Below, in pieces: positions 6,899 through 26,325 of a DNA stretch of 64,000 nt. The stretch spans positions 13,777 to 77,776 of the forward strand of contig DASUOG010000005.1 in assembly GCA_036276755.1 (NCBI GenBank), in the 5' to 3' direction. The first letter of the stretch is position 1; the number at the start of each line of letters is the position of its first letter. The notes under the pieces were generated by a model. That model was not told where the DNA came from. It saw nothing but the letters and a program-made list of their open reading frames with translations, and searched no databases. A program made the translations under genes and the position numbers. This DNA is from Candidatus Saccharimonadales bacterium. GTDB lineage: Bacteria > Patescibacteriota > Saccharimonadia > Saccharimonadales > 2-12-FULL-41-12.

Positions 6899-7453
6899 CT
6901 ATTCGCGCGACTTTAAAAGCTTGGCAAGCAAACCGGCTATAAACAACATACTCAAGGAGTAAAAACCGACTTCGCCGTACAGCTCGACTTTATAACCTTC
7001 GTTAAAATTCAATATGAAATAACTGATCGCGCTCAACGAGTAAGCGGCTATGCAAAGTATTGCCGTAGCATACAGGGCGCTGCGGCTAAGCAACAGTCCG
7101 GAAACTATAATCGGTATGATGAACAAAAAGACCGCCCGGCTTGCCATGCCTCGCTGGGTATAAACGCTGAATGAGGCCAAAGCCACATCGGCTAAAATCA
7201 TCAACAATAATAACAATTTATGCATCAGAGCATGCCTTGATCTTGAGTGAGCCAAATACCATATGACACTGTTTACGACCAGCAGTGCCGAGATGACCAC
7301 CCATCGGTATAAGACATAATCCGGGGTAATCAATTGCGATGTGTCATAAAGTATTGTCTGAACGATCAATAATATTATGAACAAGAAATGCAGCTGGCTA
7401 AATACAATCAGCCCTTTTCGCAAATTAACCGGTGATTGTTTATTTTTAGACAT
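6899..7453 (-). CDS. hypothetical polytopic membrane protein
   Basis: 184 aa with about five hydrophobic helices. Same strand and close spacing with the next two genes. Confidence 0.5.
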   Translation of the reverse strand: MSKNKQSPVNLRKGLIVFSQLHFLFIILLIVQTILYDTSQLITPDYVLYRWVVISALLVVNSVIWYLAHSRSRHALMHKLLLLLMILADVALASFSVYTQRGMASRAVFLFIIPIIVSGLLLSRSALYATAILCIAAYSLSAISYFILNFNEGYKVELYGEVGFYSLSMLFIAGLLAKLLKSRE

Positions 7454-7504
7454 AAGAATAACTAAGCAAAAGCATTATACAATAGCCCGTTTAATACTGC
7501 TATG

Positions 7505-7900
7505 TCAGTCCATGAGCCTTGACAGCAACGTCAAGATAATCGTGACGACAACGCTTATTCTCAAAGAACCGTTGATCAGACGTTTGGCACACGCCCGGTC
7601 AAGCCGACGCTTATCGCGGCTTATCACATCCTGGGTCTGCCCAACCTCGCCGGACATGTTATATTTACCGGCCTTTGCATAGCCGGTAGCGAATTTATGC
7701 CTGGCTTCATTTAACCCATGTATCGATATGAATACCGGTACCAGCATACTTAAATAAAGCAGGATAGGCACGTTGAAGAAAACCAGCATTATATAAAGCG
7801 CTGTCCCTACGGCCGCTGATCCGTAACCTACTACCTTTCGCCGATAATTTATCTCTTCCTTACCGATATTAACTGAACCGGCTTTATACTGAGATGCCAT
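7505..7900 (-). CDS. hypothetical small membrane protein
   Basis: 131 aa with two or three predicted transmembrane helices. Confidence 0.45.
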   Translation of the reverse strand: MASQYKAGSVNIGKEEINYRRKVVGYGSAAVGTALYIMLVFFNVPILLYLSMLVPVFISIHGLNEARHKFATGYAKAGKYNMSGEVGQTQDVISRDKRRLDRACAKRLINGSLRISVVVTIILTLLSRLMD

Positions 7901-7915
7901 GCCCCCGGACCGCTT

Positions 7916-8485
7916 TTATTTTTTATCTTGACTGCCTTTTAAGGCGGCTTCGACCACATCTCTTGGCAATGATGCAGCTGATAACAAGGCATTGCGAACG
8001 GTGTCCGCGGTGTCTCCACCTACCGAACTGGCCGCCGAAACCACACCACCGACAGCCGCTTTTGCGGCTTCTGAGGTATCCGCGCCGACTTCGCCGGCTG
8101 CCTTGATGGCTCCCTGTACCGCCGACACGGCTGCCGCTCCTACATCCCCGCCTGTTTCGGCAGTGGCGCTTATCGTACCTTCGGCTGCCCCTCTTATACC
8201 TTCAATCACATCCCCGCCGACTTGGCTGACACCATTTACGACGCTGCTCATAGTATTAAAAGCCGTATCTGACAATGAAACACCGACCTTGCCCGCGCCC
8301 TTAATGGCTCCGTCGGCGACCGATGCGATAGCCTCCACAGTGCTGCCACCGACATCCCCGGAAGATTGTATGACATTGATTACCTGGTCCTTTACGGTTG
8401 TCGTAACGGCATCGAGCACGTTGTCCACACCTTCTACCGCGGCAACGACCGCATCAGTAGTTTCGTTTATTATTTTTGCCAACAT
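7916..8485 (-). CDS. Ala/Gly/Val-rich tandem-repeat protein of unknown function
   Basis: 189 aa with no signal peptide. At least four degenerate ~22-aa repeats of the form GGD-V-x-A-x-x-GAIKAAG-x-VG. GC-rich coding region whose antisense frames are also open. Confidence 0.55.
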   Translation of the reverse strand: MLAKIINETTDAVVAAVEGVDNVLDAVTTTVKDQVINVIQSSGDVGGSTVEAIASVADGAIKGAGKVGVSLSDTAFNTMSSVVNGVSQVGGDVIEGIRGAAEGTISATAETGGDVGAAAVSAVQGAIKAAGEVGADTSEAAKAAVGGVVSAASSVGGDTADTVRNALLSAASLPRDVVEAALKGSQDKK

Positions 8486-8767
8486 ATCAACTCCTTATTA
8501 TGTTAATGCTAAACATAAACACAATAACATAATCGGTAGTTTTTTTACCGTTATCTGCGCAATTTAGTATATACTTTGTAAGTTATTTAGCTGCTCGCCT
8601 GAACAAAAGTCAGTTAGAATAAATAGTCTGACAACAGGCCTATTGTTGGTTTACAGACAAATTAAGAAGTTTATTATTGCAATACACTTGCTAATAATTT
8701 CTTTTAATGGTAAAATAAGTCAAATTAAAATTTGTTAGGAAATTTTCAAGGTTAGGAGAACACTTAT

Positions 8768-9670
8768 ATGAAGATAACGGTGGTTGGCGCGGGGTTTGTC
8801 GGAGAGGCCACAGGTAAAGGGCTGTCCAAACATAAGAATGAAATCGTATTCATCGATGTGGATGAAGAAATCATCAAGTCACATCGTAAGAGCGGTTTCG
8901 CGGCTTATACCCCGGAAAATTACAATAAAATTGAAAGCGACATAACGATGTTTTGCGTGCCTACTCCTACGAATGGGGGGGGTATACAGCTTGATTACCT
9001 TAAGCACGCAGTTACTGATTTTGCTAAACGCTTGGCCCGGCACGATAAATATCATGTGGGAGTTATCCGTTCAACCGTTCCTCCCGGTACTACCCGCGAC
9101 ATCGTCCTGCCTCTTATAGAAAAGTATTCGAAGAAAAAAGCCGGCAAGGATTTCGGCTTGGTCATGCAGCCGGAATACCTAAGGGAAGCGACTGCTACCG
9201 AAGATTTTGAAAGACCCTGGTTTATTCTGATCGGAGAGCTGGATAAAAAAAGCGGTGATGTGATCGAAAGGATTTATAAGCCGTTTGACGCCCCGATCGA
9301 AAGAAGCAGTTTAGAAGAAGCTGAGATGCAGAAATATATCCATAACGTATTCAATGCAGTTAAAATAGCTTTCTTCAATGAGATGCGCATCGCGATCAAT
9401 AAGAAAGGCTGGGATCAAGAAAAGATTTTTCTGGCGACGGCGGAAAGTTGTGAAGGTATTTGGAATCCCCTTTACGGGCTCAGGGATTTCGGACCTTTTG
9501 ACGGTTCCTGCCTGCCGAAGGATTGCCGGGCTCTTTTGGAATGGGCCGAGGCCAACGGGTTTGATTTCGGTATCGTAAAATCCGTCATAAAACAAAACCT
9601 ATACCACGAAAAAATCATGGGGCTCAATAAAAAGGTCAGGGTTAATTATTTAGCTAACATTCATGTTTAG
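8768..9670 (+). CDS. nucleotide-sugar 6-dehydrogenase (UDP-glucose/GDP-mannose dehydrogenase family), short form
   Basis: N-terminal Rossmann motif ITVVGAGFVGE. Catalytic-cysteine motif FDGSCLPKD (family consensus GGxCxPKD). Only 300 aa, so the C-terminal nucleotide-sugar-binding domain appears absent. RBS AGGAG lies upstream. Confidence 0.75.
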   Translation: MKITVVGAGFVGEATGKGLSKHKNEIVFIDVDEEIIKSHRKSGFAAYTPENYNKIESDITMFCVPTPTNGGGIQLDYLKHAVTDFAKRLARHDKYHVGVIRSTVPPGTTRDIVLPLIEKYSKKKAGKDFGLVMQPEYLREATATEDFERPWFILIGELDKKSGDVIERIYKPFDAPIERSSLEEAEMQKYIHNVFNAVKIAFFNEMRIAINKKGWDQEKIFLATAESCEGIWNPLYGLRDFGPFDGSCLPKDCRALLEWAEANGFDFGIVKSVIKQNLYHEKIMGLNKKVRVNYLANIHV

Positions 9671-9676
9671 ACGGTC

Positions 9677-11272
9677 ATGTTAAAGACTCTTTTGATTTAT
9701 TTGCCGCTTTCAATCATCGGCCTGTGGCGCTGGACTTTCTGGCTTATACGAGTGGCCGGAGCGCGCATGTACCGGCCGCGTTACACCAGATGGCCTCATG
9801 GTAAGGCGAAATTGAGCGTGAGCGTCGTGACGCCGGTCTATAACGAGGACGAAAAGTTGTTTAAGATGGCGGTGGATTCATGGATAAACAACGGGGTCAA
9901 TGAAATAATTGCCGTCATCGATAAAGCGAACAAAAAGCTGATTACAGATTTCCATCGTCGTTACGGGAAGGTACCGCAAGTAAAGACAAAGCTTATCGTA
10001 ACCCCGAAAAAGGGCAAGCGCGCGGCTTTATGCGACGGAATTATGCATGCCAAGGGCGATATAATCGTTCTAGCAGACTCGGACACTATATGGGATAAAG
10101 ACGTGGTTAGGAACACACTGCCCCATTTTCTAGATGAAGGCATAGGCGGTGCAACAGTAACCCAGAGGATATCCAACCCGCATACGCTGAGCAATGTCCT
10201 GTTCGATATCCTGCTATGGACCCGCTATAAAGAAGAGGTGCCTTTCATGCTTGGGCTTGGCAGGGTCTTTAACACATTGTCCGGTCGGACAGCTTTTTAT
10301 AGGCGGGAAGCCCTGCTGAATGACGAATACGACAACCTCCACGACCTTAGACATGAGAAGTTTTTCAGAACAAGAGGAGTATCCGGTGACGACAAGCGGT
10401 TGACGCATCTGATTTTAGAACAAGGCTGGCACATATCCTTCGTTAACAATGCCACGGTATATACTGCCGGCCTGAACAATATGAAATCTTTTTTGAAACA
10501 GCGCTTGCGGTGGGTACGTAACTCATGGCGGGCCGATTTAAGGGCGCTCAAACGCGGCTGGGTCATGCAACACCCGGTCTTAGCCATCCATATGATAGAC
10601 AGGTTTATCCAGCCTTTCTTCATGCTCTTAGGGCCGGTGGCGTTTGTTACTGCCATAATCATTCAACAGTGGCCGGTGGCCATTATCCTCGGCCTGTGGT
10701 GGCTCATCAGCCGTCTTATCCGACTGTTCGGCTATTTCAGACTGTATCCGAGAAGGCTTGTCTATCTGCCGGCGTATATCATATACAGCTATATAAATGC
10801 CCTTACCAAGATCTACGCCCTTGCAACCCTGCTAGAACAAGGCTGGGTAACGCGCTGGCACAAAAGCCGTATGAAAAAGCATATACTTAGGAAGGTAACT
10901 ACGCCGATGGTCGGAATGGCGGCACTGGTGCTTTTGCTAACCGGCCTGCTCAACTTCGTAAAACAAGTTAACGTCGAATCAGGTGCCAGTCTTGATATTC
11001 CGCCAGCTGTCAATGCGGCCGAATTCAGTTTCGATGAACAGGAACTGGTTTTTATAGGCATTCCTACGCAACCTGAGCTTCCGAACGGCGCGGTACTACC
11101 GACGGAAGTGAAGACCTATGTCATCAGGCCCGGAGATACCATCAATAGTTTATCGGCGAAATTCGGTATGAGCATCCCGGACATCAAACGTTTGAATGGA
11201 ATCAGCGATCCCGATAAAATTTCTGCCGGGCAGACTATTCTTTATTATAAAAACGCAGGTGTTTCAGAATGA
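9677..11272 (+). CDS. processive family-2 glycosyltransferase (HAS/NodC/Alg8-like synthase) with C-terminal LysM domain
   Basis: N-terminal TM helix then VVTPVYNED. LADSDTIWDKD (DxD motif). QRLRW processivity motif. C-terminal TM bundle. C-terminal LysM sequence YVIRPGDTINSLSAKFGMSIPDIKRLNGI. Confidence 0.8.
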   Translation: MLKTLLIYLPLSIIGLWRWTFWLIRVAGARMYRPRYTRWPHGKAKLSVSVVTPVYNEDEKLFKMAVDSWINNGVNEIIAVIDKANKKLITDFHRRYGKVPQVKTKLIVTPKKGKRAALCDGIMHAKGDIIVLADSDTIWDKDVVRNTLPHFLDEGIGGATVTQRISNPHTLSNVLFDILLWTRYKEEVPFMLGLGRVFNTLSGRTAFYRREALLNDEYDNLHDLRHEKFFRTRGVSGDDKRLTHLILEQGWHISFVNNATVYTAGLNNMKSFLKQRLRWVRNSWRADLRALKRGWVMQHPVLAIHMIDRFIQPFFMLLGPVAFVTAIIIQQWPVAIILGLWWLISRLIRLFGYFRLYPRRLVYLPAYIIYSYINALTKIYALATLLEQGWVTRWHKSRMKKHILRKVTTPMVGMAALVLLLTGLLNFVKQVNVESGASLDIPPAVNAAEFSFDEQELVFIGIPTQPELPNGAVLPTEVKTYVIRPGDTINSLSAKFGMSIPDIKRLNGISDPDKISAGQTILYYKNAGVSE

Positions 11273-12858
11273 TTAAGAACAAGAATGGCAAGCGGAGAAC
11301 TTTTCGCAGAAACCTCAAGCCGACGATGGTTATCATATTCATTCCCGTGTTGCTGGCCATGTTCGTGTTCTACTATATCTTCAGTGACAGCTTCAAAGCT
11401 TATCTGGCCCAACGCGGCAGTGAAAGACTCATTACCGAAAACTGGCCGGTAGCGAGAGATACGCTGGCGGCAGAACAGCCTAATTACGAACCAAAAAACG
11501 CTTATTATAAGATGAAGGAACGTCAGGATCTTACTTGGGCAGCCGAGCATTTCGGGGTCAGCCTTGCGGAGCTGAAAAAGCTCAACCCGGGCTCTATAGT
11601 TTACGGCACGACGATTATCGTTCCCCCTGTGCAAAAACCACTGAGTGAAGAGCCAAATCTCTCTAATTCTTTAGGTAGAGCCCAAGTCAGAGTGGATAAG
11701 AACGGCTTCATACAAGTCGTAAACGAATTCAGCAATGAGGAAATTAATCTGACCGTTCCCAAACTTGCTAGTCTGCTGGCCTCGCAAAACGCCATAGAAA
11801 AAGTCGGCGATAAGCACTACCGAGTACTGAAACCTATTTATTTGTTAGATAACTTCAGACTTGATATAACTTCTGATACGGTTGAAAAACTTGAACTTTA
11901 CAGCGGCCCCGACTTTGATACCACATGTCTCTGTTTTGAAAATTCAGCGATACTTATCAAGGACGTTGAAATAACCTCATACGATCCTAGCACCAAAGGT
12001 CCGGATACCGAACATAAGGACGGCCGAAGCTTCATAAGAGCTTTGAAGTCGAGTCGCATGGACGTGCTAAACAGCCGGATAACTTATCTGGGAGAAGGAC
12101 TTTATGACAAAAATAACCGCAAACCGATCATGGAAAACGGCGGCACGTACGGGATATCCTGGAGAATTCCTGACGGTACGCTTGGCAGTGAGATAGCGAC
12201 CGGCTGGGTTGAAAACAGCACGTTCGAAAAGAACCATTTCGGCGCCTATACCTTCGGTGTGTCCGGAATGATGTGGCGTGGTAATACCTTCGTGCATAAC
12301 GATGTGTATGGCCTGGACCCGCATGATGACAGCAATAGTGCTACAGTTGTCAATAACAAGTTCCTCGAGAACGGCAAGCATGGCTTCATCGTTTCAAAGC
12401 GTTGCAACTTCAATGTCATACGCAATAATATCTCCAGTGGTAATAAATTGCATGGCTTTATGCTTCACCAGGATTCCGTGCATAACCTGATCGAAAACAA
12501 TATAGCCGAGCGCAATACCGACAATTTTGTCATCTATGCTTCCAGCTTCAATGCCATCAGAGACAACAAAAGCTATGACGCCTCAGGCAGCCATGTACGT
12601 ATCAATGAATCCTCAAAACAAAACTACGTCATAAACAATGAATTCCATGGTGGGAACAAAGGGGTGTATATTTACGGTAACAGCCTTAACGTCCTTGTAG
12701 TTGGCAATAAGTTCGCGAATAATAAAGAAGCTGTCGTCACGCGGGGCGCTCGTAACGTGATAATCGTAGACAACTTTATAAGAAGAGTAAGCTATAATAT
12801 ATCTCCCGGAGATAGGGTTATTTTCGGGCCGAACGATGTTAACCGCAGCTTACAATAG
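11269..12858 (+). CDS. membrane-anchored right-handed parallel beta-helix protein (polysaccharide epimerase/lyase-like) with N-terminal LysM-like module
   Basis: ATGA start/stop overlap with the upstream GT2 gene. N-terminal TM helix and a LysM-like segment (LTWAAEHFGVSLAELKKLNPGSIVY). The C-terminal half has reiterated N-x-x-x-N-N beta-helix (PbH1) repeats, e.g. NNKFLENGKHGF, RNNISSGNKLHGF, IENNIAERNTDNF, NNEFHGGNKGVYIY, VVGNKFANNKEAV. Confidence 0.7.
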   Translation: MIKNKNGKRRTFRRNLKPTMVIIFIPVLLAMFVFYYIFSDSFKAYLAQRGSERLITENWPVARDTLAAEQPNYEPKNAYYKMKERQDLTWAAEHFGVSLAELKKLNPGSIVYGTTIIVPPVQKPLSEEPNLSNSLGRAQVRVDKNGFIQVVNEFSNEEINLTVPKLASLLASQNAIEKVGDKHYRVLKPIYLLDNFRLDITSDTVEKLELYSGPDFDTTCLCFENSAILIKDVEITSYDPSTKGPDTEHKDGRSFIRALKSSRMDVLNSRITYLGEGLYDKNNRKPIMENGGTYGISWRIPDGTLGSEIATGWVENSTFEKNHFGAYTFGVSGMMWRGNTFVHNDVYGLDPHDDSNSATVVNNKFLENGKHGFIVSKRCNFNVIRNNISSGNKLHGFMLHQDSVHNLIENNIAERNTDNFVIYASSFNAIRDNKSYDASGSHVRINESSKQNYVINNEFHGGNKGVYIYGNSLNVLVVGNKFANNKEAVVTRGARNVIIVDNFIRRVSYNISPGDRVIFGPNDVNRSLQ

Positions 12859-12909
12859 TTGTGAATTATTATATCCCCCCCAAGTGTTCGGATATTTTAG
12901 GATAGTTTT

Positions 12910-13854
12910 ATGTTCTCAAAGATTACACATAACTTGAGCCGTGGCTTAAACAGAGGGTTACTGCAAAACTTTCGTCGCAGGATGTCCAGCAAGAAAGCTG
13001 TGATGATTATCGTTTTGGTTTTTTTAGGCGTTTTTATAACCGGTTATCTGACTTCTGCAGACAAGCCGGAAACTTCCAGCATGTCCGGAGAGGATGCTTA
13101 TACGAACGAAACAAGCAATAATACGGCTTCAGAGGAACCCAACGCGGGTGTCCAACCGGGTACATCGGCGGTTTCAAGCCGGATCCCTCCAGCCCTCACG
13201 CCGGCGCGGATAATCAATTTGAATAACTGGAAACTGACCCTACCGATAAACACCGGATATTCAGGCAATCCGGATGAGATTAAGCAACCCGCGTTGACAA
13301 AATTCACTAAACCTCCCTATTTCCGGGTAAACAGCGCGAAAAATGGCGTGATATTCAGAGCTCACACCGGCGGGGCTACTACCTCAAATTCAGGCTATCC
13401 GCGTTCCGAACTGCGCGAGATGCGAAACAACGGCAGACTCAAAGCCAGCTGGTACGGCGGCAGAGGCTCGCATACCATGACCATCCGCCAGGCTATAACT
13501 CATCTGCCCCGTGTCAAACCTCATGTGGTCGCCGGTCAGATACATGATGCCTCGGATGACGTGATGATGATCAGGCTGGAACGCAAACATTTGTTCGTGG
13601 AGTCCGACGGTGACAACGTAGGTACTTTGGACAAGAATTATTCCCTAGGCAAAGCATTCACCGTGAAGGTACACGTCTATAAGGGCAAGATAACCGTGTA
13701 TTACAACGGATCAAGGAAGGTCTCCTTAAGCGGCAAAGGTTCCGGTTATTACTTTAAAGCCGGATGTTACACGCAAAGCAATCCAAGCAAAGGCGACAGC
13801 CCCAGCGATTACGGCGAAGTGACCATTTACTCATTAAACATCCGCCACACATAA
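12910..13854 (+). CDS. polysaccharide lyase family 7 (alginate-lyase-like) protein, membrane-anchored
   Basis: Contains the three conserved PL7 blocks RSELRE, QIHD and YFKAGCYTQ in the expected order. N-terminal signal-anchor helix. Confidence 0.75.
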   Translation: MFSKITHNLSRGLNRGLLQNFRRRMSSKKAVMIIVLVFLGVFITGYLTSADKPETSSMSGEDAYTNETSNNTASEEPNAGVQPGTSAVSSRIPPALTPARIINLNNWKLTLPINTGYSGNPDEIKQPALTKFTKPPYFRVNSAKNGVIFRAHTGGATTSNSGYPRSELREMRNNGRLKASWYGGRGSHTMTIRQAITHLPRVKPHVVAGQIHDASDDVMMIRLERKHLFVESDGDNVGTLDKNYSLGKAFTVKVHVYKGKITVYYNGSRKVSLSGKGSGYYFKAGCYTQSNPSKGDSPSDYGEVTIYSLNIRHT

Positions 13855-14004
13855 GCCTAAAACAAAAACAACAGGGGTAAGCATAAGCATAAAATATATT
13901 TGCATTATTGTAAATTTCACACTTTTATTTATTTTACCGGAGTATTATAGTTCCACCACAAGGTATGGTTGGGGACCTGTAAGGTAAATATAAGGAGGGA
14001 CAAA

Positions 14005-14532
14005 ATGCAAAAAGTCAAAAAGACAATCAAGACTGCACTGGCTAGCTTACTGCTTGCAGGTGCTTTTGCCGTGCCGGCATCCGCCAGCACAACCAATACA
14101 AATACTACTACTGTAGATAGCAACAATTCTACGGACAAAAGCAAAACATACAATCTCGAAGAATGTGCCGGGATTGTTAATACTACCGTCAACCAAGAAC
14201 AAGACGTTGACGCCGATAACGAGCAGGATAACGACGCTGATAGCGCCGGCCTTATCAATATCGGTAACGATCCTGAACAAGACAACGAAGGCAGCGCATC
14301 CGCTAACGGAAGCCAGTCTTCGAGCGTCAACTTCAGCCCGGACTGCAGCGAAGTTACTAACGTAACCAACGTAAACGAGTCCCAGGTCAGCAAGACCCCT
14401 TCGGGTGGTGTTGACTCCGGAGCCGGCGGTGCATCCGAAGCTGTAGCAACCAGCTCTATCTTGGGTCTTATCGGCTCGGTAGCAGCTCTTGGTGCAGGAG
14501 CAGTATTACGCCTTCGCGGTGTAGAGCTTTAA
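14005..14532 (+). CDS. secreted acidic low-complexity protein with C-terminal hydrophobic anchor; probable sortase substrate
   Basis: AGGAGG RBS lies 7 nt before the ATG at 14005; the ORF-track start at 13969 is rejected. Signal peptide MQKVKKTIKTALASLLLAGAFAVPASA. D/N/S/T-rich body. C-terminus has a hydrophobic stretch followed by RLRGVEL. No canonical LPXTG is present. A sortase gene lies immediately downstream. Confidence 0.6.
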   Translation: MQKVKKTIKTALASLLLAGAFAVPASASTTNTNTTTVDSNNSTDKSKTYNLEECAGIVNTTVNQEQDVDADNEQDNDADSAGLINIGNDPEQDNEGSASANGSQSSSVNFSPDCSEVTNVTNVNESQVSKTPSGGVDSGAGGASEAVATSSILGLIGSVAALGAGAVLRLRGVEL

Positions 14533-14553
14533 GCGAGGGAAAAAAGGATAGCA

Positions 14554-15447
14554 GTGTTTCAACTGTTCTCGCAAAAAGGCAAAAGTGGACGGACCTCTAA
14601 AAAGGACCGTCCGCTTTTAAAATCTACTAAAACCGTCAAGCTGCGTATTTTCAAACGACGCGTTTTGAGTTTCGGCTTTTATAAATCAAGGAAACCGGCC
14701 GTAGGGCGGATCGATAAAACAACTAAATTTATTATTAGTTTCTATTTGTTTTCCAGGTTTATAGAAGCCAGAATTTCTTATAAAAAATACCCGTATCAAG
14801 GGTTGCGCTACACCAATAGCCTCAATCCGCTTCATTTGATATCGATAATATTGTTATTTGCCGGTATCGGGGGAATGATCTATTTCGGATTTGACATAAA
14901 CAAACCGTATGAGATAAAGCCTGTGAGTTTGGCAGTACCTGTGTTTGAACAAGCCGAACAAAAACCGGCGATCCGACAAGGCCTTCCCTTCTCCAAACCC
15001 AAACATATCAAGATCGACCGCGTCGGTATCGACTATCCGGTCATGGAAGTCGGTCAGAAAAAGGACGGAACCATGGAAACTCCGCCGCTTTTTAAAGACG
15101 TAACCGGCTGGTACAAACACGGTCCCAGCCCGGGTGAAGTCGGCCCCGCTATAATCGTCGGCCATGTCGATACCTACAAGGGGCCGTCAGTCTTCTGGCG
15201 TTTGCGTGAGCTTAAAAGCGGCGATGTCATAACCGTAACCCGCGAAGATAAATCAGTAGTCAGGTTTAAAGTAACCGGCCTGCAACAATTTGAGCAAAAC
15301 AACTTTCCTACCAAGAAGGTATACGGCAATACTAAGGGTTCTGAACTCAGGCTGATAACCTGCGGCGGTACGTTTAACAAACAGACCCTGCGTTACTCGG
15401 AAAACACGGTAGTGTTTGCCACAATTATCAACCATAACAACACATAA
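14554..15447 (+). CDS. sortase family transpeptidase (class E/F-like)
   Basis: N-terminal TM anchor. Catalytic His in AIIVGHVDT, TLxTC motif as LRLITCGG, and the conserved Arg in RYSENTVVFA. Confidence 0.8.
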   Translation: MFQLFSQKGKSGRTSKKDRPLLKSTKTVKLRIFKRRVLSFGFYKSRKPAVGRIDKTTKFIISFYLFSRFIEARISYKKYPYQGLRYTNSLNPLHLISIILLFAGIGGMIYFGFDINKPYEIKPVSLAVPVFEQAEQKPAIRQGLPFSKPKHIKIDRVGIDYPVMEVGQKKDGTMETPPLFKDVTGWYKHGPSPGEVGPAIIVGHVDTYKGPSVFWRLRELKSGDVITVTREDKSVVRFKVTGLQQFEQNNFPTKKVYGNTKGSELRLITCGGTFNKQTLRYSENTVVFATIINHNNT

Positions 15448-16436: not shown

Positions 16437-17270
16437 ATGCGCAAGCTAGAATATGCCGGCAATCGGCAAACAAAAACGCGGAGAACGCACAAAATATCAG
16501 TGGTTATCCTGGCAGTGCTTATCGCAGGCATAACATTCGTGGTGATGCATAGGCAGGCTACCGCACCCGAACCACGTGCACCAGTGCAAACCAGTACAAA
16601 TATGCCAAAAACAGATATGGGTCGTAAAGGGTTTAAAACCTTCAGCGGCAAGGAATTTGCAAGACTTTACGATTCGTTCGTGTACCCGAACACGCTGATG
16701 ATCAACGAGGATACTCCTATAACAGGTAATGCAGAGGCGGACAGTAAGTTAAGAGAACTAGCCGAAAAACGCGGTTATAAACTGCGCAGTGCGCCGGTAA
16801 CCGATACCTTCGTTGAAATTCAAACGGACATGCTTCTGCAAAGGCTGGCTGCCTTGGACTGGACAAAGCTGAATAACCGTGCCAAAAAAGCCGGGTTAAA
16901 CCTGCTACTTACCGACGCTTACCGGTCCGCCAAGGACCAGAGAGCTATTTTCTTGCAACGGATAAAGAGCATCCCTGTCGAATCCATCGCCAGCGGAGAA
17001 GCCGATGCCCGCATAAACGGTGTGCTGGCAACCACTGCTTTGCCCGGCTATTCGCGGCACCATACAGGCTACAGCGTCGATATAGCTTGCAAAAATGACC
17101 CTGCAGTCAAGTTCGAGGATTCCAAATGCTTCCTCTGGCTTAGTAAGAACAATTATTCCAATGCCAAAAAATCGGGCTGGATTCCCAGCTATCCCGAAGG
17201 TGCCGGACGGCAAGGTCCTGACCCCGAGGCATGGGAGTATGTATGGGTGGGAACGGACGCGCTTAAATAA
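16437..17270 (+). CDS. D-alanyl-D-alanine carboxypeptidase, VanY/M15 peptidase family
   Basis: Signal-anchor helix. M15 family zinc motifs SRHHTGYSVD (SxHxxGxAxD) and a C-terminal EAWEY region (EPWH-like). Confidence 0.75.
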   Translation: MRKLEYAGNRQTKTRRTHKISVVILAVLIAGITFVVMHRQATAPEPRAPVQTSTNMPKTDMGRKGFKTFSGKEFARLYDSFVYPNTLMINEDTPITGNAEADSKLRELAEKRGYKLRSAPVTDTFVEIQTDMLLQRLAALDWTKLNNRAKKAGLNLLLTDAYRSAKDQRAIFLQRIKSIPVESIASGEADARINGVLATTALPGYSRHHTGYSVDIACKNDPAVKFEDSKCFLWLSKNNYSNAKKSGWIPSYPEGAGRQGPDPEAWEYVWVGTDALK

Positions 17271-18242: not shown

Positions 18243-19376
18243 ATGAAAATCGGTATCGTATGTCCATACAATATATTCAAGGGCGGCGGCGTACAGGAGT
18301 ATGCTCTCGGCTTACGCAACAGCTTGGTCGCTAACGGTCATAAGGCTTTTGTGATTACCCCGCAGCCTATGGATTATGACGGGCCGAAAGTACCGGGTAT
18401 CATCATGATCGGCGGCGCGGCCCCGATCAGATCATTCCACACATCCGCTCAGGTTTCCGCCTCGGTCGACACCGATGCCCTGGAGGCGGTCTTACGCGAA
18501 CAAAATTTTGATATCCTGCATTTTCATGAGCCTTGGGTACCGATGCTGTCCCGTCAAATACTATCGAGATCGGACGCCATCCATATAGCGACCTTTCACG
18601 CCGCGATGAGTGAGAGATGGACTGCAAGAACCTTGGAGAGGGTCATAACCCCCTACACCAAATCAATCCTCAAATATCTGGACGTATTGACGGCCGTATC
18701 ACCGGTCGCGACCAATTATATAAAAACCCTTACGCACCGTAAAATTTATATTATTCCCAACGCCATAGATATTGAGAAATACCAGCAGAAAGACAAGCAA
18801 GCGGCCAATCCGCAAAAGAACAAGAAGACCATACTCTATGTCGGAAGATTAGAAAAAAGAAAAGCCGTAAAGTATTTGATCCAGGCTTTTGGCGCGATAA
18901 ATCAGGTGCACAAACGCTACCATCTCATCATCGCGGGAGAAGGTCCCGACCGGGACAGGCTGGAAGAACAGATCAAGGAGTCCGATATCAACAACGTCAC
19001 ATTCCTTGGCCACATAGATGAGGCGGAAAAAATCAATTTGCTGCAGAGCTGCGATGTCTTCTGCTCCCCGGCCATGTACGGAGAAAGTTTCGGTATAGTG
19101 CTTCTGGAAGCAATGGCAGCGGGCTGCGTAACCGTCGCCGGTGCCAATGCCGGATACGAAAGCGTATTGACCGGCAGCGGTCAGATTTCACTGGTCAATC
19201 CTAAGGACACCAAGGATTTCGCAAGACGGCTTCTGCTTATGGCTTCCGACGACGGCTTAAGGCAACATTGGCTGGGTTGGGCCGAAAACGAGGTCAGTAA
19301 ATACAGCTATCAGAACATAGTGAACCAATACATGAAGCTTTATGAGCTGGCCTATACCAAAAAACACCATGAATAA
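18243..19376 (+). CDS. glycosyltransferase family 4 (GT-B fold)
   Basis: EX7E motif region GESFGIVLLEAMAAGCVTVA in the C-terminal half. 377 aa. Confidence 0.8.
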   Translation: MKIGIVCPYNIFKGGGVQEYALGLRNSLVANGHKAFVITPQPMDYDGPKVPGIIMIGGAAPIRSFHTSAQVSASVDTDALEAVLREQNFDILHFHEPWVPMLSRQILSRSDAIHIATFHAAMSERWTARTLERVITPYTKSILKYLDVLTAVSPVATNYIKTLTHRKIYIIPNAIDIEKYQQKDKQAANPQKNKKTILYVGRLEKRKAVKYLIQAFGAINQVHKRYHLIIAGEGPDRDRLEEQIKESDINNVTFLGHIDEAEKINLLQSCDVFCSPAMYGESFGIVLLEAMAAGCVTVAGANAGYESVLTGSGQISLVNPKDTKDFARRLLLMASDDGLRQHWLGWAENEVSKYSYQNIVNQYMKLYELAYTKKHHE

Positions 19377-20490
19377 GTTAAAAATAGCTTTTGTTATAGA
19401 TGACGGCATGGACAGGCCCGACGGTGTACAGCAATATGTTCTAACGCTTGGCAGGTGGTTTAAGCGGCAAGGCCATAGCGTACGATACCTCACGGGTGAA
19501 ACTTCACGGCAAGATATAAAAGATGTTATCCCGCTTGCCAGGAACCTGTCCGTGCGATTCAACGGTAACAGTTTGACCACCCCCTTGCGGGCTTCGGGCT
19601 CAAAGATCAAAAAAGTGCTTGATGAAGAACGATTCGACATAATTCATGTACAAATTCCTCATAGTCCGTTCATGGCAGCCAGAGTCGTGCGGAGGGCTCA
19701 CAAAAACTCAATCGTAATAGGCACCTTCCATGTACTTCCCACCGGCAGATTACAGCGGGCAGGGACCAAACTGCTCGGTCTTGTTCTCAAATATAACCTG
19801 AAAAAGTTCGATATGTTCTTAAGCGTGTCCAAGCCGGCTAAACGTTTCGCCAAAAAAGCGTTCGGTATAAACAGCACGGTACTGCCGAACCCTGTTGAGA
19901 CAACCAGATTCAAAAAAAATACAAAAACGCGTGATAACAAGAGCGTCAGTATATTATTTTTGGGTCGCCTGGTGCCCAGGAAAGGCTGCATGCAGCTAAT
20001 AAAAGCTGTTGAGATCCTTCTGCAGGCCGATTTAGCTGCGGATATAAAATTGGATATCTGCGGTAGTGGCAATCAAAAAAACGCTGTTGAAAAGTACATA
20101 CAAGCAAGAGACGATCTGAAAAAAATAACAGTCATGCACGGTTTCGTCAGTGAAAAAAAGAAGGCCGAACTTTTAGCCAATGCCGATTTCGCAGTATTTC
20201 CCTCTTTGTCCGGTGAGAGCTTCGGGATAGTGCTGATTGAAGCCATGGCTGCCGAAACCGGCGCGGTATTGGCCGGGAACAACCCGGGTTATTCAAGTGT
20301 GCTCTCGAGTGTTCCGGACAGCTTGTTCGATCCGAAAAACCCTCGGGAGCTGAGTGATAAATTGCTTGAGCTTATCAAAAGCAAAAAGAAATTCGACTCT
20401 ATGCATAACAGGCAACAAAGCTTAGTGAAGAAATTTGATGTAGAAAGAATCGGTACTAAACTGCTGGATATATACACAGCGAAAGCTTAA
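19369..20490 (+). CDS. glycosyltransferase family 4 (GT-B fold), second copy
   Basis: GESFGIVLIEAMAAETGAVLAG. Start chosen at the ATGAATAA overlap with the upstream gene (MNKLKIAFVIDDG) rather than the ORF-track start at 19342. Confidence 0.75.
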   Translation: MNKLKIAFVIDDGMDRPDGVQQYVLTLGRWFKRQGHSVRYLTGETSRQDIKDVIPLARNLSVRFNGNSLTTPLRASGSKIKKVLDEERFDIIHVQIPHSPFMAARVVRRAHKNSIVIGTFHVLPTGRLQRAGTKLLGLVLKYNLKKFDMFLSVSKPAKRFAKKAFGINSTVLPNPVETTRFKKNTKTRDNKSVSILFLGRLVPRKGCMQLIKAVEILLQADLAADIKLDICGSGNQKNAVEKYIQARDDLKKITVMHGFVSEKKKAELLANADFAVFPSLSGESFGIVLIEAMAAETGAVLAGNNPGYSSVLSSVPDSLFDPKNPRELSDKLLELIKSKKKFDSMHNRQQSLVKKFDVERIGTKLLDIYTAKA

Positions 20491-24954: not shown

Positions 24955-26325
24955 TTAGCTTTCGAATATCCTTTGGTATTCCTCAGTTTCCGGCCAGCCG
25001 ATGAAGTATCGTTCGGTATGGTAGCTGCATATCAAAAACATGCCGAGTAGTATTATCGCTATCCCGAGCAACCGGGCCAGAGGATTGTTCGGGAATATGC
25101 TCATCCATTGTTCTATCAGGTAGGCAATACCTACGGCTATGATTATGTAAATCAGGGGCAGAAGAACTGATATATATGTAATACCGTTAACAGCGATCAA
25201 CAAGATAGCCAGAATTATGGATGAAAATATAATTTTTTTGCCCACGGGATGGCTTTTAGTCCGAATAAGGTATACCAGGCCGGCCAGCAAAAAAATTGCC
25301 GAAACGAAATCGATTATAGGGGTTTTATAAAGCCAGATCGAATAGTCATTGATGCCGTTGATAAACAGCTGGCCCGGTAACTCGGCCAAAGTAGCTTTCA
25401 TGGTGCCAAGAGAAGGCAGGCTGCCTACCTCCGCCCCGGCCAGTTTTATCAGCTGTGTAGAACTATCTAGAGACAGATAATTTATAACCAAGGCCATATA
25501 CGAAACGATTACCGACATGAACAGCACAGCCGGCAGGATAATATTCTTTATGCTTTTCTTTTCTTTAAGATAGTATAGCCCGATACTTGCCGCTATCAAG
25601 AAAAGCCATACGGCCCCCGGCACGAACAACAATTGCGCTAGTAAGATTGCTCCTATGACCGTGATGGCCAGTGAATTCGTGCGTAACACCAGGCTGCCGC
25701 AGTACAAAAGTACAGGTACCAAAGCTGCCGCCAGGACCGCAACGCCGTCTTGTCGGGCCTGGAGCAATAGCCAGGTTGAGCTTGCATAAGCCAAAAGTGT
25801 CAACACAGCCGTACGTTTGTTAATCCACCTAGCTACCAGCTTATAAAAACAAAACAGCGAGAACAGCAAAACAGCAACGGAGAGCAACCTTGCTTCCAGC
25901 TGTCCGGCCAAGTGCAGTTTGGCCAGGCCTATTAACAGCAATTTCATAGGCATATAATCCGCCGATTCTATGTCTGAAAGATGTTCATATGTTTTGGATG
26001 CGCCGTCATCGGACATAAGCGCCGGAAAATTCTCAAGATCGAACAGGTAGATTCCCAGTATAAAGACAGGTATGACCATGTACAATATCCTGTCTCTGAT
26101 CCAGCCTAACGTGCCGGCAATGGATAACCGGCGCTTATCCGCAGGTCCTTTAACCTTCTCCGGAGCCTGTTTTTTGGCAGATTCGGGTTTATTATCGGTT
26201 TTTGTGGACTCTTTTTCAGCTTGAGGTTTTTGTGTGATGCCGTCTATCGTCGAAACCGGCTGTATCTTACGGGGCAATACACCCCCCATACTTAAGATAA
26301 CCGGTCTTTTTTGCTTTTTCACCAT
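24955..26325 (-). CDS. polytopic membrane protein (possible GT-C-type glycosyltransferase)
   Basis: 456 aa. Hydrophilic Lys-rich N-terminus followed by at least 10 TM helices. A DLE/DD-containing first loop is only weakly reminiscent of ArnT/PMT-type enzymes. Confidence 0.4.
   Translation of the reverse strand: MVKKQKRPVILSMGGVLPRKIQPVSTIDGITQKPQAEKESTKTDNKPESAKKQAPEKVKGPADKRRLSIAGTLGWIRDRILYMVIPVFILGIYLFDLENFPALMSDDGASKTYEHLSDIESADYMPMKLLLIGLAKLHLAGQLEARLLSVAVLLFSLFCFYKLVARWINKRTAVLTLLAYASSTWLLLQARQDGVAVLAAALVPVLLYCGSLVLRTNSLAITVIGAILLAQLLFVPGAVWLFLIAASIGLYYLKEKKSIKNIILPAVLFMSVIVSYMALVINYLSLDSSTQLIKLAGAEVGSLPSLGTMKATLAELPGQLFINGINDYSIWLYKTPIIDFVSAIFLLAGLVYLIRTKSHPVGKKIIFSSIILAILLIAVNGITYISVLLPLIYIIIAVGIAYLIEQWMSIFPNNPLARLLGIAIILLGMFLICSYHTERYFIGWPETEEYQRIFES

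What the first reader, a model, noticed from the sequence alone, without database searches (positions are those of the whole stretch)
8768..13854. Compact acidic-exopolysaccharide locus: short sugar dehydrogenase, LysM-bearing processive GT2 synthase, LysM beta-helix protein and PL7 lyase
Four consecutive same-strand genes encode the set seen in polyuronide systems such as alginate, glucuronan or hyaluronan-like polymers. First, a UDP-Glc/GDP-Man 6-dehydrogenase that makes the uronic-acid donor. Second, a membrane-embedded processive GT2 with the QRLRW motif (Alg8/HAS/NodC type). Third, a right-handed beta-helix protein of the kind used by C5-epimerases and lyases such as AlgG. Fourth, a PL7 lyase with the RSELRE/QIHD/YFKAGCY triad. 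Both the synthase and the beta-helix protein carry LysM modules, which would tether them, or the polymer, to peptidoglycan. A self-contained uronate-polymer synthesis, modification and degradation cassette with LysM fusions is unusual for a reduced genome.
Basis: partly seen in the sequence, partly recalled or inferred. Interest (0 to 1): 0.55.

Follow-up and report, generated by a model that had tools for sequence, protein, structure and literature searches.

The report
Compact alginate-type polysaccharide operon in Saccharibacteria
Four adjacent genes in this tiny-genome bacterium most likely make, modify and trim an alginate-like acidic sugar polymer, using a much simpler machine than the Pseudomonas one, and the same cassette is widespread in other ultra-small bacteria.

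Summary
The organism is a Candidatus Saccharimonadales MAG.

All four proteins point to alginate rather than glucuronan or hyaluronan.
- The 300-aa dehydrogenase lacks the C-terminal nucleotide-sugar domain. It keeps all the catalytic residues and is closest to AlgD, the GDP-mannose dehydrogenase. Its short architecture matches the biochemically proven brown-algal GDP-mannose dehydrogenases.
- The GT2 is a membrane-embedded processive synthase with the hyaluronan-synthase fold (Foldseek E 1e-19).
- The beta-helix protein matches only mannuronan C5-epimerases and has the YGxDPHD motif.
- The PL7 is closest to alginate and polyguluronate lyases.

The cassette is not an oddity. 78 related loci show short dehydrogenase + GT2 + beta-helix + a lyase (PL7 or PL9-like) in Saccharibacteria, in high-GC Actinomycetota, and in other CPR phyla and Chloroflexota. 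In the last two groups the GT2 and the epimerase-like domain are fused in one ~965-aa protein.

Best reading (about 0.6): a minimal alginate-type pathway built on a HAS-like rather than Alg8-type synthase. I found no prior description. No chemistry has been done.

The parts
8650..8716 (+). Possible promoter region upstream of the first gene. There are two sigma-70-like matches, at 8650-8677 (10 of 12) and 8688-8716.
   Evidence: These are consensus matches only. The region as a whole holds only slightly more such matches than shuffled sequence, so this is weak evidence.
8768..9670 (+). Short (300 aa) NAD-dependent sugar-nucleotide 6-dehydrogenase, inferred to be a GDP-mannose 6-dehydrogenase that makes GDP-mannuronate. 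The NAD motif GAGFVG is at aa 7-12. The catalytic Cys248 lies in DGSCLPKD (aa 245-252, nt 9500-9523). There is no C-terminal nucleotide-sugar-binding domain.
   Evidence: Pfam N-terminal and central domains only. TIGR03026 scores 195 bits against a cut-off of 190. The best PDB match is AlgD 1MFZ at 164 bits, against 120 bits for the best UDP-glucose dehydrogenase, and Cys268, Thr, Glu, Lys, Asn and Asp all align. Orthologues are 64-82% identical and nearly all about 300 aa long (294-327). The signatures are shared with brown-algal GMDs (PMC4782291).
9677..11272 (+). Membrane-embedded processive GT2 synthase of the hyaluronan-synthase/NodC type with a C-terminal extracellular LysM. Layout: N-terminal TM helix (aa ~2-30); GT-A domain (aa ~45-300) with DSD (134-136), GDDKRLT (237-243) and QRLRW (275-279, nt 10499-10513); TM and interface helices (aa 300-385); WVTRW (390-394); last TM helix (aa 410-432); linker; LysM (aa 481-521, nt 11117-11239).
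   Evidence: Pfam and LysM hits. NodC is the best NCBIfam model at 109 bits, far below its cut-off of 550. The family profile's best full-length PDB match is Chlorella virus HAS at 62 bits. The AlphaFold model has pLDDT 83. Foldseek top hits are Cv-HAS and XlHAS1 at E 1e-19 to 1e-20, then the mannosyltransferase PcManGT at ~1e-13, BcsA at 1e-12 and chitin synthases at 1e-11. The catalytic motifs are invariant in 26 homologues.
11269..12858 (+). Membrane-anchored extracellular right-handed beta-helix protein related to mannuronan C5-epimerases. Layout: TM anchor (aa 18-38); divergent LysM (aa 78-118, nt 11500-11622); beta-helix (aa ~139-519) with YGLDPHDDS (aa 347-355, nt 12307-12333) and KHGFIVSKR (aa 370-378). 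Its start codon overlaps the GT2 stop codon (ATGA).
   Evidence: Pfam Beta_helix and NosD. The AlgG model NF038177 scores 85 bits, far below its cut-off of 700. Apart from one weak LysM hit (E 1e-3) and a marginal NosD hit, the PDB sequence hits are all mannuronan C5-epimerases, with the AlgG DPHD region aligned. The AlphaFold model has pLDDT 91. Foldseek's top hit is AlgG 4NK6 at E 8e-15, seven orders of magnitude better than the next fold. The motif is conserved in 75 of 82 domains. LysM evidence.
12910..13854 (+). Secreted or membrane-anchored PL7 polysaccharide lyase. A hydrophobic signal or anchor lies at aa 30-48 and the catalytic domain at aa 102-313 (nt 13213-13848). The catalytic residues are Arg in RSELRE, Gln and His in QIHD, and Tyr in YFKAGCY.
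   Evidence: Pfam Alginate_lyase2 scores 161 bits against a cut-off of 29.7. The best PDB matches are alginate lyase AlgAT5 5ZQI (253 bits) and polyguluronate lyase 1UAI (214 bits). The PL7 glucuronan lyase 7NDE scores only 30 bits. Hydropathy. Motif positions.

Best explanation
This is a four-gene operon for an alginate-type polyuronide: a mannuronan that is partly epimerised to guluronate. It is made by a minimal, synthase-dependent pathway suited to a single-membrane cell.

Proposed steps:
1. In the cytoplasm the short dehydrogenase oxidises GDP-mannose to GDP-mannuronate, using NAD+ and Cys248. This step is inferred from homology and from the brown-algal precedent.
2. The HAS-like GT2 polymerises the uronate and threads the chain through its own transmembrane channel. 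No lipid carrier, Alg44, or outer-membrane components are needed. The fold and motifs are shown; the donor and linkage are inferred.
3. Outside the membrane, the TM-anchored AlgG-like beta-helix acts on the emerging chain by abstracting the C5 proton at the YGLDPHD site, converting some M residues to G. The homology and motif are shown; epimerase rather than lyase activity is inferred.
4. The PL7 lyase trims or clears the polymer, as AlgL does in Pseudomonas. Its QIH motif suggests a preference for G-containing substrate; that rule is from my own knowledge of PL7 and was not tested.

The LysM modules on the synthase C-terminus and on the epimerase hold the extracellular parts at the peptidoglycan. 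In the fused homologues the LysM sits between the last TM helix and the beta-helix domain.
For: - All four ORFs are intact, tightly spaced and on the same strand.
- Dehydrogenase: its closest solved relative is AlgD and the catalytic residues are conserved. Its nearest full-length relatives are AlgD-like, at 45-50% identity to AlgD. The ~300-aa form is a large clade and not a truncation.
- Brown-algal GMDs of 315-320 aa make GDP-mannuronate in vitro (PMC4782291). Two substitutions that paper lists as distinguishing algal from bacterial GMD are typical of this short family: Pro two residues before GGxC, and a non-Tyr residue in GxGxVG.
- PMC11468063 reports that the best bacterial match to brown-algal GMD is a Woesebacteriota protein. 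Woesebacteria carry this cassette (L066).
- GT2: HAS-type processive fold and motifs.
- Beta-helix: essentially only mannuronan C5-epimerases match, by sequence and by fold, with the DPHD motif. PMC11468063 calls DPHD typical of the ManC5-E catalytic site.
- PL7: closest to alginate and polyG lyases.
- Across 78 loci the dehydrogenase, GT2 and beta-helix co-occur with a lyase (PL7 or PL9-like/DUF1565). In 45 loci the GT2 and beta-helix are one polypeptide, which links them physically and fixes the C-terminus outside the cell.
- Flanking genes are not conserved, so the cassette is a self-contained unit.
Against: - No product chemistry exists.
- The dehydrogenase prefers AlgD over UDP-glucose dehydrogenases only moderately: 162 vs 126 bits by BLASTP. 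NCBIfam's best equivalog hits are UDP-glucose dehydrogenases, because no GMD model showed up.
- I could not obtain a brown-algal GMD sequence to compare directly.
- The synthase resembles UDP-sugar enzymes (HAS, NodC). I could not compare it with Alg8, the only known GDP-mannuronate polymerase.
- No GDP-mannose synthesis genes (manA, manB, manC) were found among the window ORFs I scanned.
- The position of AlgG Arg345 is Lys377 here, followed by Arg378.
- Epimerases and lyases share the C5-proton abstraction step, so the beta-helix could be a lyase.
Confidence: 0.6

Rival explanations
1. The polymer is a glucuronate-based polymer, either glucuronan or a hyaluronan/heparosan-like chain. The dehydrogenase is a UDP-glucose 6-dehydrogenase, the HAS-like GT2 uses UDP-GlcA (with or without UDP-GlcNAc), and the beta-helix and PL7 act on that polymer.
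For: The GT2's closest characterised relatives are hyaluronan synthases and NodC, which use UDP-sugars. NCBIfam equivalog hits for the dehydrogenase are UDP-glucose dehydrogenases AglM and TuaD. PL7 includes a glucuronan lyase (7NDE). LysM modules bind GlcNAc-containing glycans (my own knowledge).
Against: The dehydrogenase scores higher against AlgD than against any UDP-glucose dehydrogenase in the PDB (164 vs 120 bits). Its nearest long relatives are AlgD-like. The short architecture matches proven GDP-mannose dehydrogenases (PMC4782291). Essentially the only relatives of the beta-helix, by sequence and by fold, are mannuronan epimerases. The PL7 scores 253 and 214 bits against alginate lyases but 30 bits against the glucuronan lyase.
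Confidence: 0.17
2. The donor and synthase are as in the best explanation, but the beta-helix protein is a second lyase or a depolymerase rather than an epimerase. The product would then be a plain homopolymer, mannuronan.
For: Epimerases and lyases of this fold share the C5-proton abstraction step, and bifunctional enzymes exist. PDB 8JAZ is described as an 'alginate epimerase/lyase' and appears among the hits. The residue at the AlgG Arg345 position is Lys here.
Against: A dedicated lyase (PL7 or PL9-like) accompanies the beta-helix in most loci that have enough flank, so a second lyase fused to the synthase would be redundant. YGxDPHD is the epimerase signature (PMC11468063). The PL7 is closest to a polyguluronate-specific lyase (1UAI), which implies that G residues exist in the polymer.
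Confidence: 0.13
3. The locus is mainly degradative or offensive. The PL7 and the beta-helix would attack a host or environmental polyuronide, for example the capsule of the actinobacterial host, and the GT2 and dehydrogenase would serve an unrelated cell-wall glycan.
For: Saccharibacteria live as epibionts (my own knowledge). Both extracellular proteins are surface-anchored. The lyase slot varies between PL7 and PL9-like.
Against: The dehydrogenase and GT2, and the beta-helix where enough flank is present, are syntenic in nearly all loci, and the GT2 and beta-helix are fused in 45 loci, which ties the beta-helix to the synthase's own product. No uptake or oligo-uronate catabolism genes are adjacent. 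The same cassette occurs in free-living-type Chloroflexota and Actinomycetota on Mb-scale contigs.
Confidence: 0.05

Closest known systems
Pseudomonas/Azotobacter alginate system (algD-alg8-alg44-algK-algE-algG-algX-algL-algI-algJ-algF-algA)
   Same: It follows the same logic: a GDP-mannose dehydrogenase homologue, a GT2 polymerase, a polymer-level beta-helix C5-epimerase homologous to AlgG with the DPHD motif, and a lyase encoded in the operon.
   Different: There are four genes instead of twelve. No Alg44/PilZ co-polymerase, AlgK/AlgE outer-membrane export, AlgX, AlgI/J/F acetylation or AlgA was seen in the window or in related loci. The dehydrogenase lacks the C-terminal domain. The lyase is PL7 (or PL9-like), whereas AlgL is PL5 (AlgL's family is from my own knowledge). 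The synthase is HAS/NodC-like, and its relationship to Alg8 was not tested. The extracellular parts carry LysM modules. The epimerase is fused to the synthase in many lineages.
Brown-algal alginate pathway (short GMD, ManC5-E family, unidentified mannuronan synthase)
   Same: The GDP-mannose dehydrogenase architecture is short, at ~300-320 aa, with the (G/D)GxCLPKD motif and the Pro and non-Tyr substitutions (PMC4782291). The epimerases are beta-helix proteins with DPHD (PMC11468063). There is no Alg8 homologue in brown algae (PMC11468063). The best bacterial match to algal GMD was reported from Woesebacteriota, a phylum that carries this cassette (PMC11468063).
   Different: Here the genes are clustered in an operon and the synthase is identifiable. 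I could not make a direct sequence comparison with algal proteins. Brown algae use PL41 lyases, not PL7 (PMC11468063).
Class I hyaluronan synthase operons (hasA-hasB) and NodC
   Same: A nucleotide-sugar 6-dehydrogenase gene lies next to a single-protein processive GT2 that both polymerises and exports. The G(D/E)D(R/K)xLT and Q(Q/R)xRW motifs and the overall fold are shared, with TM-score 0.61-0.65 to Cv-HAS.
   Different: Sequence identity to HAS is only 17-20%. The NodC model score of 109 bits is far below its cut-off of 550. There is one N-terminal and one final TM helix, which places the C-terminus and its LysM outside the cell. The partners are an epimerase and an alginate-type lyase, and the dehydrogenase is GMD-like rather than UGDH-like.

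Membership tests
UDP-glucose/GDP-mannose 6-dehydrogenase superfamily | N-terminal Rossmann NAD-binding domain with GxGxxG, and a central domain carrying the catalytic Cys in GGxC(L/F)PKD | tested here: met
   PF03721 scores 112 bits, PF00984 61 bits, and TIGR03026 195 bits against a cut-off of 190. GAGFVG is at aa 7-12. Cys248 aligns with AlgD Cys268.
UDP-glucose/GDP-mannose 6-dehydrogenase superfamily | C-terminal nucleotide-sugar-binding domain (PF03720) | tested here: not met
   The protein ends at residue 300 and has no PF03720 hit. Orthologues are nearly all about 300 aa long (294-327). Of the 150 closest 50%-identity clusters, about 120 are short (mostly 280-340 aa) and about 30 are full-length, and the full-length forms first appear at rank 65 (~183 bits).
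Short GDP-mannose 6-dehydrogenase (brown-algal type) | Length of ~300-320 aa without the C-terminal domain, a GGxCLPKD active motif, and the Pro and Val substitutions relative to bacterial AlgD | tested here: met
   The protein is 300 aa. It has DGSCLPKD with Pro243 two residues upstream. That Pro is present in 183 of 206 short forms and 1 of 26 long forms. The NAD motif has F or V where long forms have Y. The algal features are as described in PMC4782291. No algal sequence was available for a direct alignment.
Short GDP-mannose 6-dehydrogenase (brown-algal type) | [quoted passage not shown] | not testable with these tools
   This needs an enzyme assay. Indirect support: AlgD is the best PDB match and the nearest long relatives are AlgD-like.
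Processive membrane GT2 synthases (HAS / NodC / chitin synthase / BcsA group) | GT-A domain with DxD, G(D/E)D(R/K)xLT and Q(Q/R)xRW motifs, followed by interface and TM helices that form a channel | tested here: met
   DSD, GDDKRLT and QRLRW are invariant in 26 homologues. The profile aligns to Cv-HAS across the GT and TM regions. Foldseek E-values are 1e-19 to 1e-20 to HAS, ~1e-13 to the mannosyltransferase PcManGT, 1e-12 to BcsA and 1e-11 to Chs.
NodC / hyaluronan synthase (as orthologue) | Score above the curated equivalog cut-off | tested here: not met
   TIGR04242 NodC scores 109 bits against a cut-off of 550. Identity to HAS structures is 17-20%. The protein is a relative, not a member.
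Alg8 mannuronan synthase | Sequence orthology to Alg8 and dependence on the PilZ protein Alg44 | not tested
   No Alg8 sequence or model was reachable. There was no Alg8 hit in the PDB or NCBIfam output, and a plasmid search for an alg operon found none. No PilZ or Alg44-like gene lies next to the cassette in the window or in L001-L004.
Mannuronan C5-epimerase (AlgG/AlgE type) | Right-handed parallel beta-helix | tested here: met
   PF13229 scores 84 bits. The AlphaFold model has pLDDT 91 and is all-beta from residue 139. AlgG is the top Foldseek hit at E 8e-15.
Mannuronan C5-epimerase (AlgG/AlgE type) | Catalytic YG(F/I/L)DPH(D/E) motif; in AlgG this is DPHD with His319 as the base | tested here: met
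   YGLDPHDDS at aa 347-355 aligns with AlgG YGIDPHDRS. The motif is present in 75 of 82 related domains. The assignment of His319 as the catalytic base is from my own knowledge of the AlgG literature.
Mannuronan C5-epimerase (AlgG/AlgE type) | AlgG Arg345, the carboxylate-neutralising residue | tested here: inconclusive
   The aligned residue is Lys377, immediately followed by Arg378, in KHGFIVSKR versus AlgG KHGIIISRE. 'SKR' recurs across the family.
Mannuronan C5-epimerase (AlgG/AlgE type) | AlgG equivalog score | tested here: not met
   NF038177 scores 85 bits against a cut-off of 700 (146 bits for a fused homologue). The protein is a distant relative of AlgG, not an orthologue.
Polysaccharide lyase family 7 | Pfam Alginate_lyase2 above threshold, plus the catalytic Arg, Gln, His and Tyr | tested here: met
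   The Pfam score is 161 bits against a cut-off of 29.7. RSELRE, QIHD and YFKAGCY are aligned with 5ZQI and 1UAI.
LysM domain | Pfam LysM above threshold | tested here: met
   GT2 C-terminus: 47 bits against a cut-off of 20.9. Beta-helix protein: no Pfam hit. There the LysM rests on hhalign probability 98%, Pfam LysM hits in 12 orthologues and the beta-alpha-alpha-beta fold in the model.

The most novel reading that the evidence does not exclude
This cassette family represents the bacterial stock from which brown algae acquired alginate synthesis (the short GMD and the DPHD epimerases). Its HAS-like GT2, which is physically fused to the epimerase in many CPR and Chloroflexota genomes, would then define the long-sought non-Alg8 class of mannuronan synthase. 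Alginate-type polymers would be a common surface material of ultra-small episymbiotic bacteria, and the cassette would have been exchanged with the Actinomycetota that host them.
Probability: 0.25. Interest if true: 0.85.

Novelty: new variant of a known kind. Interest (0 to 1): 0.64.

Why it matters
As far as I know, bacterial alginate synthesis is known only from Pseudomonas and Azotobacter, where it needs a twelve-gene, two-membrane machine. A three- or four-gene version built around a HAS-like synthase would do four things:
- Extend alginate-type polymers to CPR/Patescibacteria, Chloroflexota and Actinomycetota.
- Give a tractable candidate for a second class of mannuronan synthase. The brown-algal synthase is still unidentified and has no Alg8 homologue (PMC11468063).
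- Explain the odd 'short' GDP-mannose dehydrogenase of brown algae as a member of a large bacterial family.
- Point to a surface polymer that may matter for how Saccharibacteria attach to, or protect themselves on, their hosts.

The actinobacterial copies nest inside the Saccharibacteria clade. That fits gene transfer from Saccharibacteria, which are known as epibionts of Actinomycetota, into that phylum.

Tried and rejected
- Alg8 comparison. No Alg8 appears in the PDB hits or the NCBIfam output. A tblastn of an AlgD fragment against plasmids, aimed at finding an alg operon to borrow Alg8 from, found only unrelated GMD-like genes. The GT2-versus-Alg8 question stays open.
- Direct comparison with brown-algal GMD. 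Tenhaken et al. 2011 is not held. The supplements of PMC11468063 and PMC4782291 contain no sequences. No representative matched the SjGMD length and motif fingerprint exactly. Cluster names were uninformative, except for one long form labelled GDP-mannose 6-dehydrogenase.
- PL9-like/DUF1565 partner. It gave no useful PDB sequence hit.
- Viral contigs. They hold no relative of the beta-helix protein.
- AlphaFold DB fold search. The library was not available.
- GDP-mannose synthesis genes. None were found among the window ORFs I scanned.
- Considered and rejected:
  - A truncated or pseudogenised dehydrogenase. Orthologues are nearly all about 300 aa long and 64-82% identical.
  - A non-processive GT2.
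  - The downstream sortase and sorting-signal genes as part of the cassette. They are not conserved with it.
  - Bailinhaonella (L081) as a cultured carrier. It has only a distant GT2 plus dehydrogenase pair, with no epimerase or lyase.

Full report
**What is there.** One search shows four intact + strand ORFs at exactly the stated coordinates: 8768-9670 (300 aa), 9677-11272 (531 aa), 11269-12858 (529 aa) and 12910-13854 (314 aa). They are separated by 6 nt, a 4-nt ATGA stop/start overlap, and 51 nt. A 282-nt upstream gap holds two sigma-70-like matches (weak evidence). The layout fits one operon. The GT2 is 100% identical to a protein of a Candidatus Saccharimonadales MAG. GC is 47% both in the cassette and in the window as a whole.

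**HMM tests.**
- Dehydrogenase: N-terminal domain 112 bits and central domain 61 bits, with no C-terminal PF03720 domain.
- GT2: 91 bits, plus LysM at 47 bits.
- Beta-helix protein: Beta_helix 84 bits and NosD 55 bits.
- PL7: Alginate_lyase2 161 bits.
- The motifs QRLRW, RSELRE, QIHD and YFKAGCY are all present.

**The dehydrogenase.**
- It reaches the NDP-sugar dehydrogenase subfamily cut-off (TIGR03026, 195 bits against 190).
- Against solved structures, P. aeruginosa AlgD (GDP-mannose 6-dehydrogenase, 1MFZ) is clearly best, at 164 bits against 120 bits for the best UDP-glucose dehydrogenase. Cys248 sits on AlgD Cys268, and the Thr, Glu, Lys, Asn and Asp catalytic residues align.
- The short length is not damage. 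120 orthologue clusters are nearly all about 300 aa long (294-327) and 64-82% identical, which is more conserved than the GT2.
- In an exhaustive search of 1.8 billion representatives, about 120 of the 150 closest 50%-identity clusters are short (mostly 280-340 aa). Full-length forms of 430-450 aa first appear at rank 65, about 183 bits. Those nearest long forms are AlgD-like, at 45-50% identity to AlgD.
- The literature supplies the precedent. Brown-algal GDP-mannose dehydrogenases are 315-320 aa and convert GDP-mannose to GDP-mannuronate in vitro (PMC4782291). From memory, and not checkable here, Tenhaken et al. 2011 reported that the Ectocarpus enzyme lacks the C-terminal ~120 residues and is specific for GDP-mannose.
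- Two substitutions that PMC4782291 lists as separating algal from bacterial GMD are typical of the short family. A Pro two residues before GGxC occurs in 183 of 206 short forms against 1 of 26 long forms. F or V replaces Y in GxGxVG.
- PMC11468063 reports that the best bacterial match to algal GMD is a Woesebacteriota protein.

**The synthase.**
- The best NCBIfam model is NodC, at 109 bits and far below its cut-off.
- A 26-sequence family profile aligns to Chlorella virus hyaluronan synthase across the GT and membrane regions (62 bits). BcsA is marginal.
- DSD, GDDKRLT and QRLRW are invariant in the family.
- The AlphaFold model (pLDDT 83) matches Cv-HAS and Xenopus HAS1 best (E 1e-19 to 1e-20, TM-score 0.61-0.65). 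The archaeal mannosyltransferase PcManGT follows at ~1e-13, then BcsA at 1e-12 and chitin synthases at 1e-11.
- It is therefore a processive, channel-forming synthase and not a dolichol-phosphate-type transferase.
- Hydropathy, the HAS alignment and the basic stretch after WVTRW place one final TM helix (aa 410-432) leading outwards to the LysM. The fused homologues confirm this topology, because in them the same position continues into the extracellular beta-helix.

**The beta-helix protein.**
- Apart from one weak LysM hit and a marginal NosD hit, its only PDB sequence matches are mannuronan C5-epimerases, both as a single sequence and as a family profile. AlgG scores 65 and 85 bits; AlgE4, AlgE6 and two others follow.
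- YGLDPHDDS aligns with AlgG YGIDPHDRS. The motif is conserved in 75 of 82 related domains.
- AlgG Arg345 aligns with Lys377, which is followed by Arg378.
- The AlphaFold model (pLDDT 91) has AlgG as its top structural neighbour at E 8e-15, seven orders of magnitude ahead of any other beta-helix.
- An N-terminal TM anchor is followed by a divergent LysM. Pfam misses this LysM. It is supported by hhalign at 98%, by orthologues with Pfam LysM hits and by the modelled beta-alpha-alpha-beta unit.

**The lyase.** The PL7 is closest to alginate lyase AlgAT5 (253 bits) and to the polyguluronate lyase of Corynebacterium (214 bits). The PL7 glucuronan lyase scores 30 bits. The protein has an N-terminal hydrophobic signal or anchor.

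**Distribution.**
- Neighbourhoods of three homologues and 78 loci from GTDB species representatives show the same unit everywhere.
- In 37 loci the genes are arranged as in the window, with the short dehydrogenase, GT2-LysM and beta-helix as separate genes. These come from Saccharibacteria and from Aeromicrobium, Propionibacteriaceae and other Actinomycetota.
- In 45 loci the short dehydrogenase sits beside a ~965-aa GT2::LysM::beta-helix fusion. These come from Davies-, Levy-, Curtiss-, Woese-, Ames- and Moran-bacteria, WWE3 and Chloroflexota.
- A lyase gene lies next to the unit in most loci that have enough flank. It is either PL7 or a PL9-like/DUF1565 beta-helix protein.
- Flanking genes are not conserved.
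- The actinobacterial loci are genuinely high-GC (63-67%), cassette included, and lie on contigs of up to 2.7 Mb.
- In a neighbour-joining tree without bootstrap, the actinobacterial sequences form one clade nested inside the Saccharibacteria. The split type as a whole nests among the fused types.
- The fusion is Rosetta-stone evidence that the beta-helix works on the synthase's own product.

**Interpretation.** Four independent components each point to alginate chemistry: a GDP-mannuronate donor, a processive synthase, a mannuronan C5-epimerase relative and an alginate/polyG lyase. I therefore read the locus as a minimal alginate-type pathway for a single-membrane cell, built on a HAS-like rather than Alg8-type synthase, with LysM modules tethering the extracellular parts to peptidoglycan.
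- Shown: the gene content, folds, motifs, synteny and fusion.
- Inferred: the donor sugar, the linkage, epimerase rather than lyase activity, and the role of LysM.
- Main weaknesses:
  - The preference for GMD over UGDH is only moderate.
  - I had no algal or Alg8 sequences to compare.
  - No GDP-mannose synthesis genes turned up among the window ORFs I scanned. GDP-mannose-dependent transferases have, however, been described in a soil Saccharibacterium (PMC6031116).

**Novelty.** Seven full-text searches that combined Saccharibacteria, Patescibacteria or CPR (and mannuronan-synthase terms) with alginate, hyaluronan synthase, epimerase or glycosyltransferase found no description of this cassette. 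The brown-algal literature notes actinobacterial and Woesebacteriota relatives of GMD and ManC5-E. It states that the algal mannuronan synthase is unknown and is not Alg8-like (PMC11468063). I class the finding as a new variant of a known kind of system. If the brown-algal link and the synthase assignment hold up, the interest would be high.

Noticed in passing
window 13969-14532 and 14554-15447: Immediately downstream of the PL7 lie two genes. One encodes a 187-aa secreted low-complexity protein with a GVDTG C-terminal sorting signal (NF058571, 24 bits, just under its cut-off of 29). The other encodes a class F sortase (NF033748, 190 bits). They look like a sortase-substrate pair. They are not conserved next to the cassette in other loci.
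   Followed up: partly
L020, L021, L022, L023, L078 (positions ~7050-14750) and L024-L026: High-GC Actinomycetota MAGs (Aeromicrobium, Propionibacteriaceae) carry the Saccharibacteria-type split cassette, followed in the Aeromicrobium-type loci (L020-L023, L078) by two to three PL7 paralogues (L024/L025 have one). One paralogue has an Ig-like/CARDB module. In the NJ tree they nest inside the Saccharibacteria clade, which suggests transfer from Saccharibacteria into Actinomycetota, the phylum of their known hosts.
   Followed up: partly
L036 (7929-15114) and L038 (1107-7923): Some CPR genomes carry two tandem copies of the GT2::beta-helix fusion flanking a single short dehydrogenase gene.
   Followed up: no
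L003/L011 11288-12658; L007 11260-12696: In some Saccharibacteria a second, shorter beta-helix paralogue that retains YGLDPHDDS follows the main epimerase-like gene. This recalls the multiple epimerases of Azotobacter and brown algae.
   Followed up: no
window 31900-34191 and 34795-35631: A 763-aa ORF fuses thymidylate kinase with a ThyX-type thymidylate synthase. A separate ThyA-type thymidylate synthase and a dCTP deaminase lie nearby. Having both ThyX and ThyA is unexpected in a reduced genome.
   Followed up: no
window 7916-8485 (- strand): Divergently upstream of the cassette is a 189-aa Ala/Gly/Val-rich protein with no Pfam hit. A 191-aa ORF overlaps it on the opposite strand. It has only one weak relative among the 78 loci (L049).
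   Followed up: no
window 16437-17270 and 18243-20490: A VanY/LdcB-like D,D- or L,D-carboxypeptidase and two adjacent GT4 glycosyltransferases lie a few kb downstream. These are further cell-envelope genes that are not conserved with the cassette.
   Followed up: no
window 24955-26325 (- strand) and 1706-2476: Two sizeable ORFs (456 aa and 256 aa) have no Pfam family at E<=1e-4.
   Followed up: no
L081 8001-10145 (Bailinhaonella thermotolerans): A cultured actinomycete has a distant pair: a 390-aa GT2 without LysM (37% identity) and a 318-aa short dehydrogenase. No epimerase or lyase is recognisable nearby. This may be a simpler relative of the system.
   Followed up: partly
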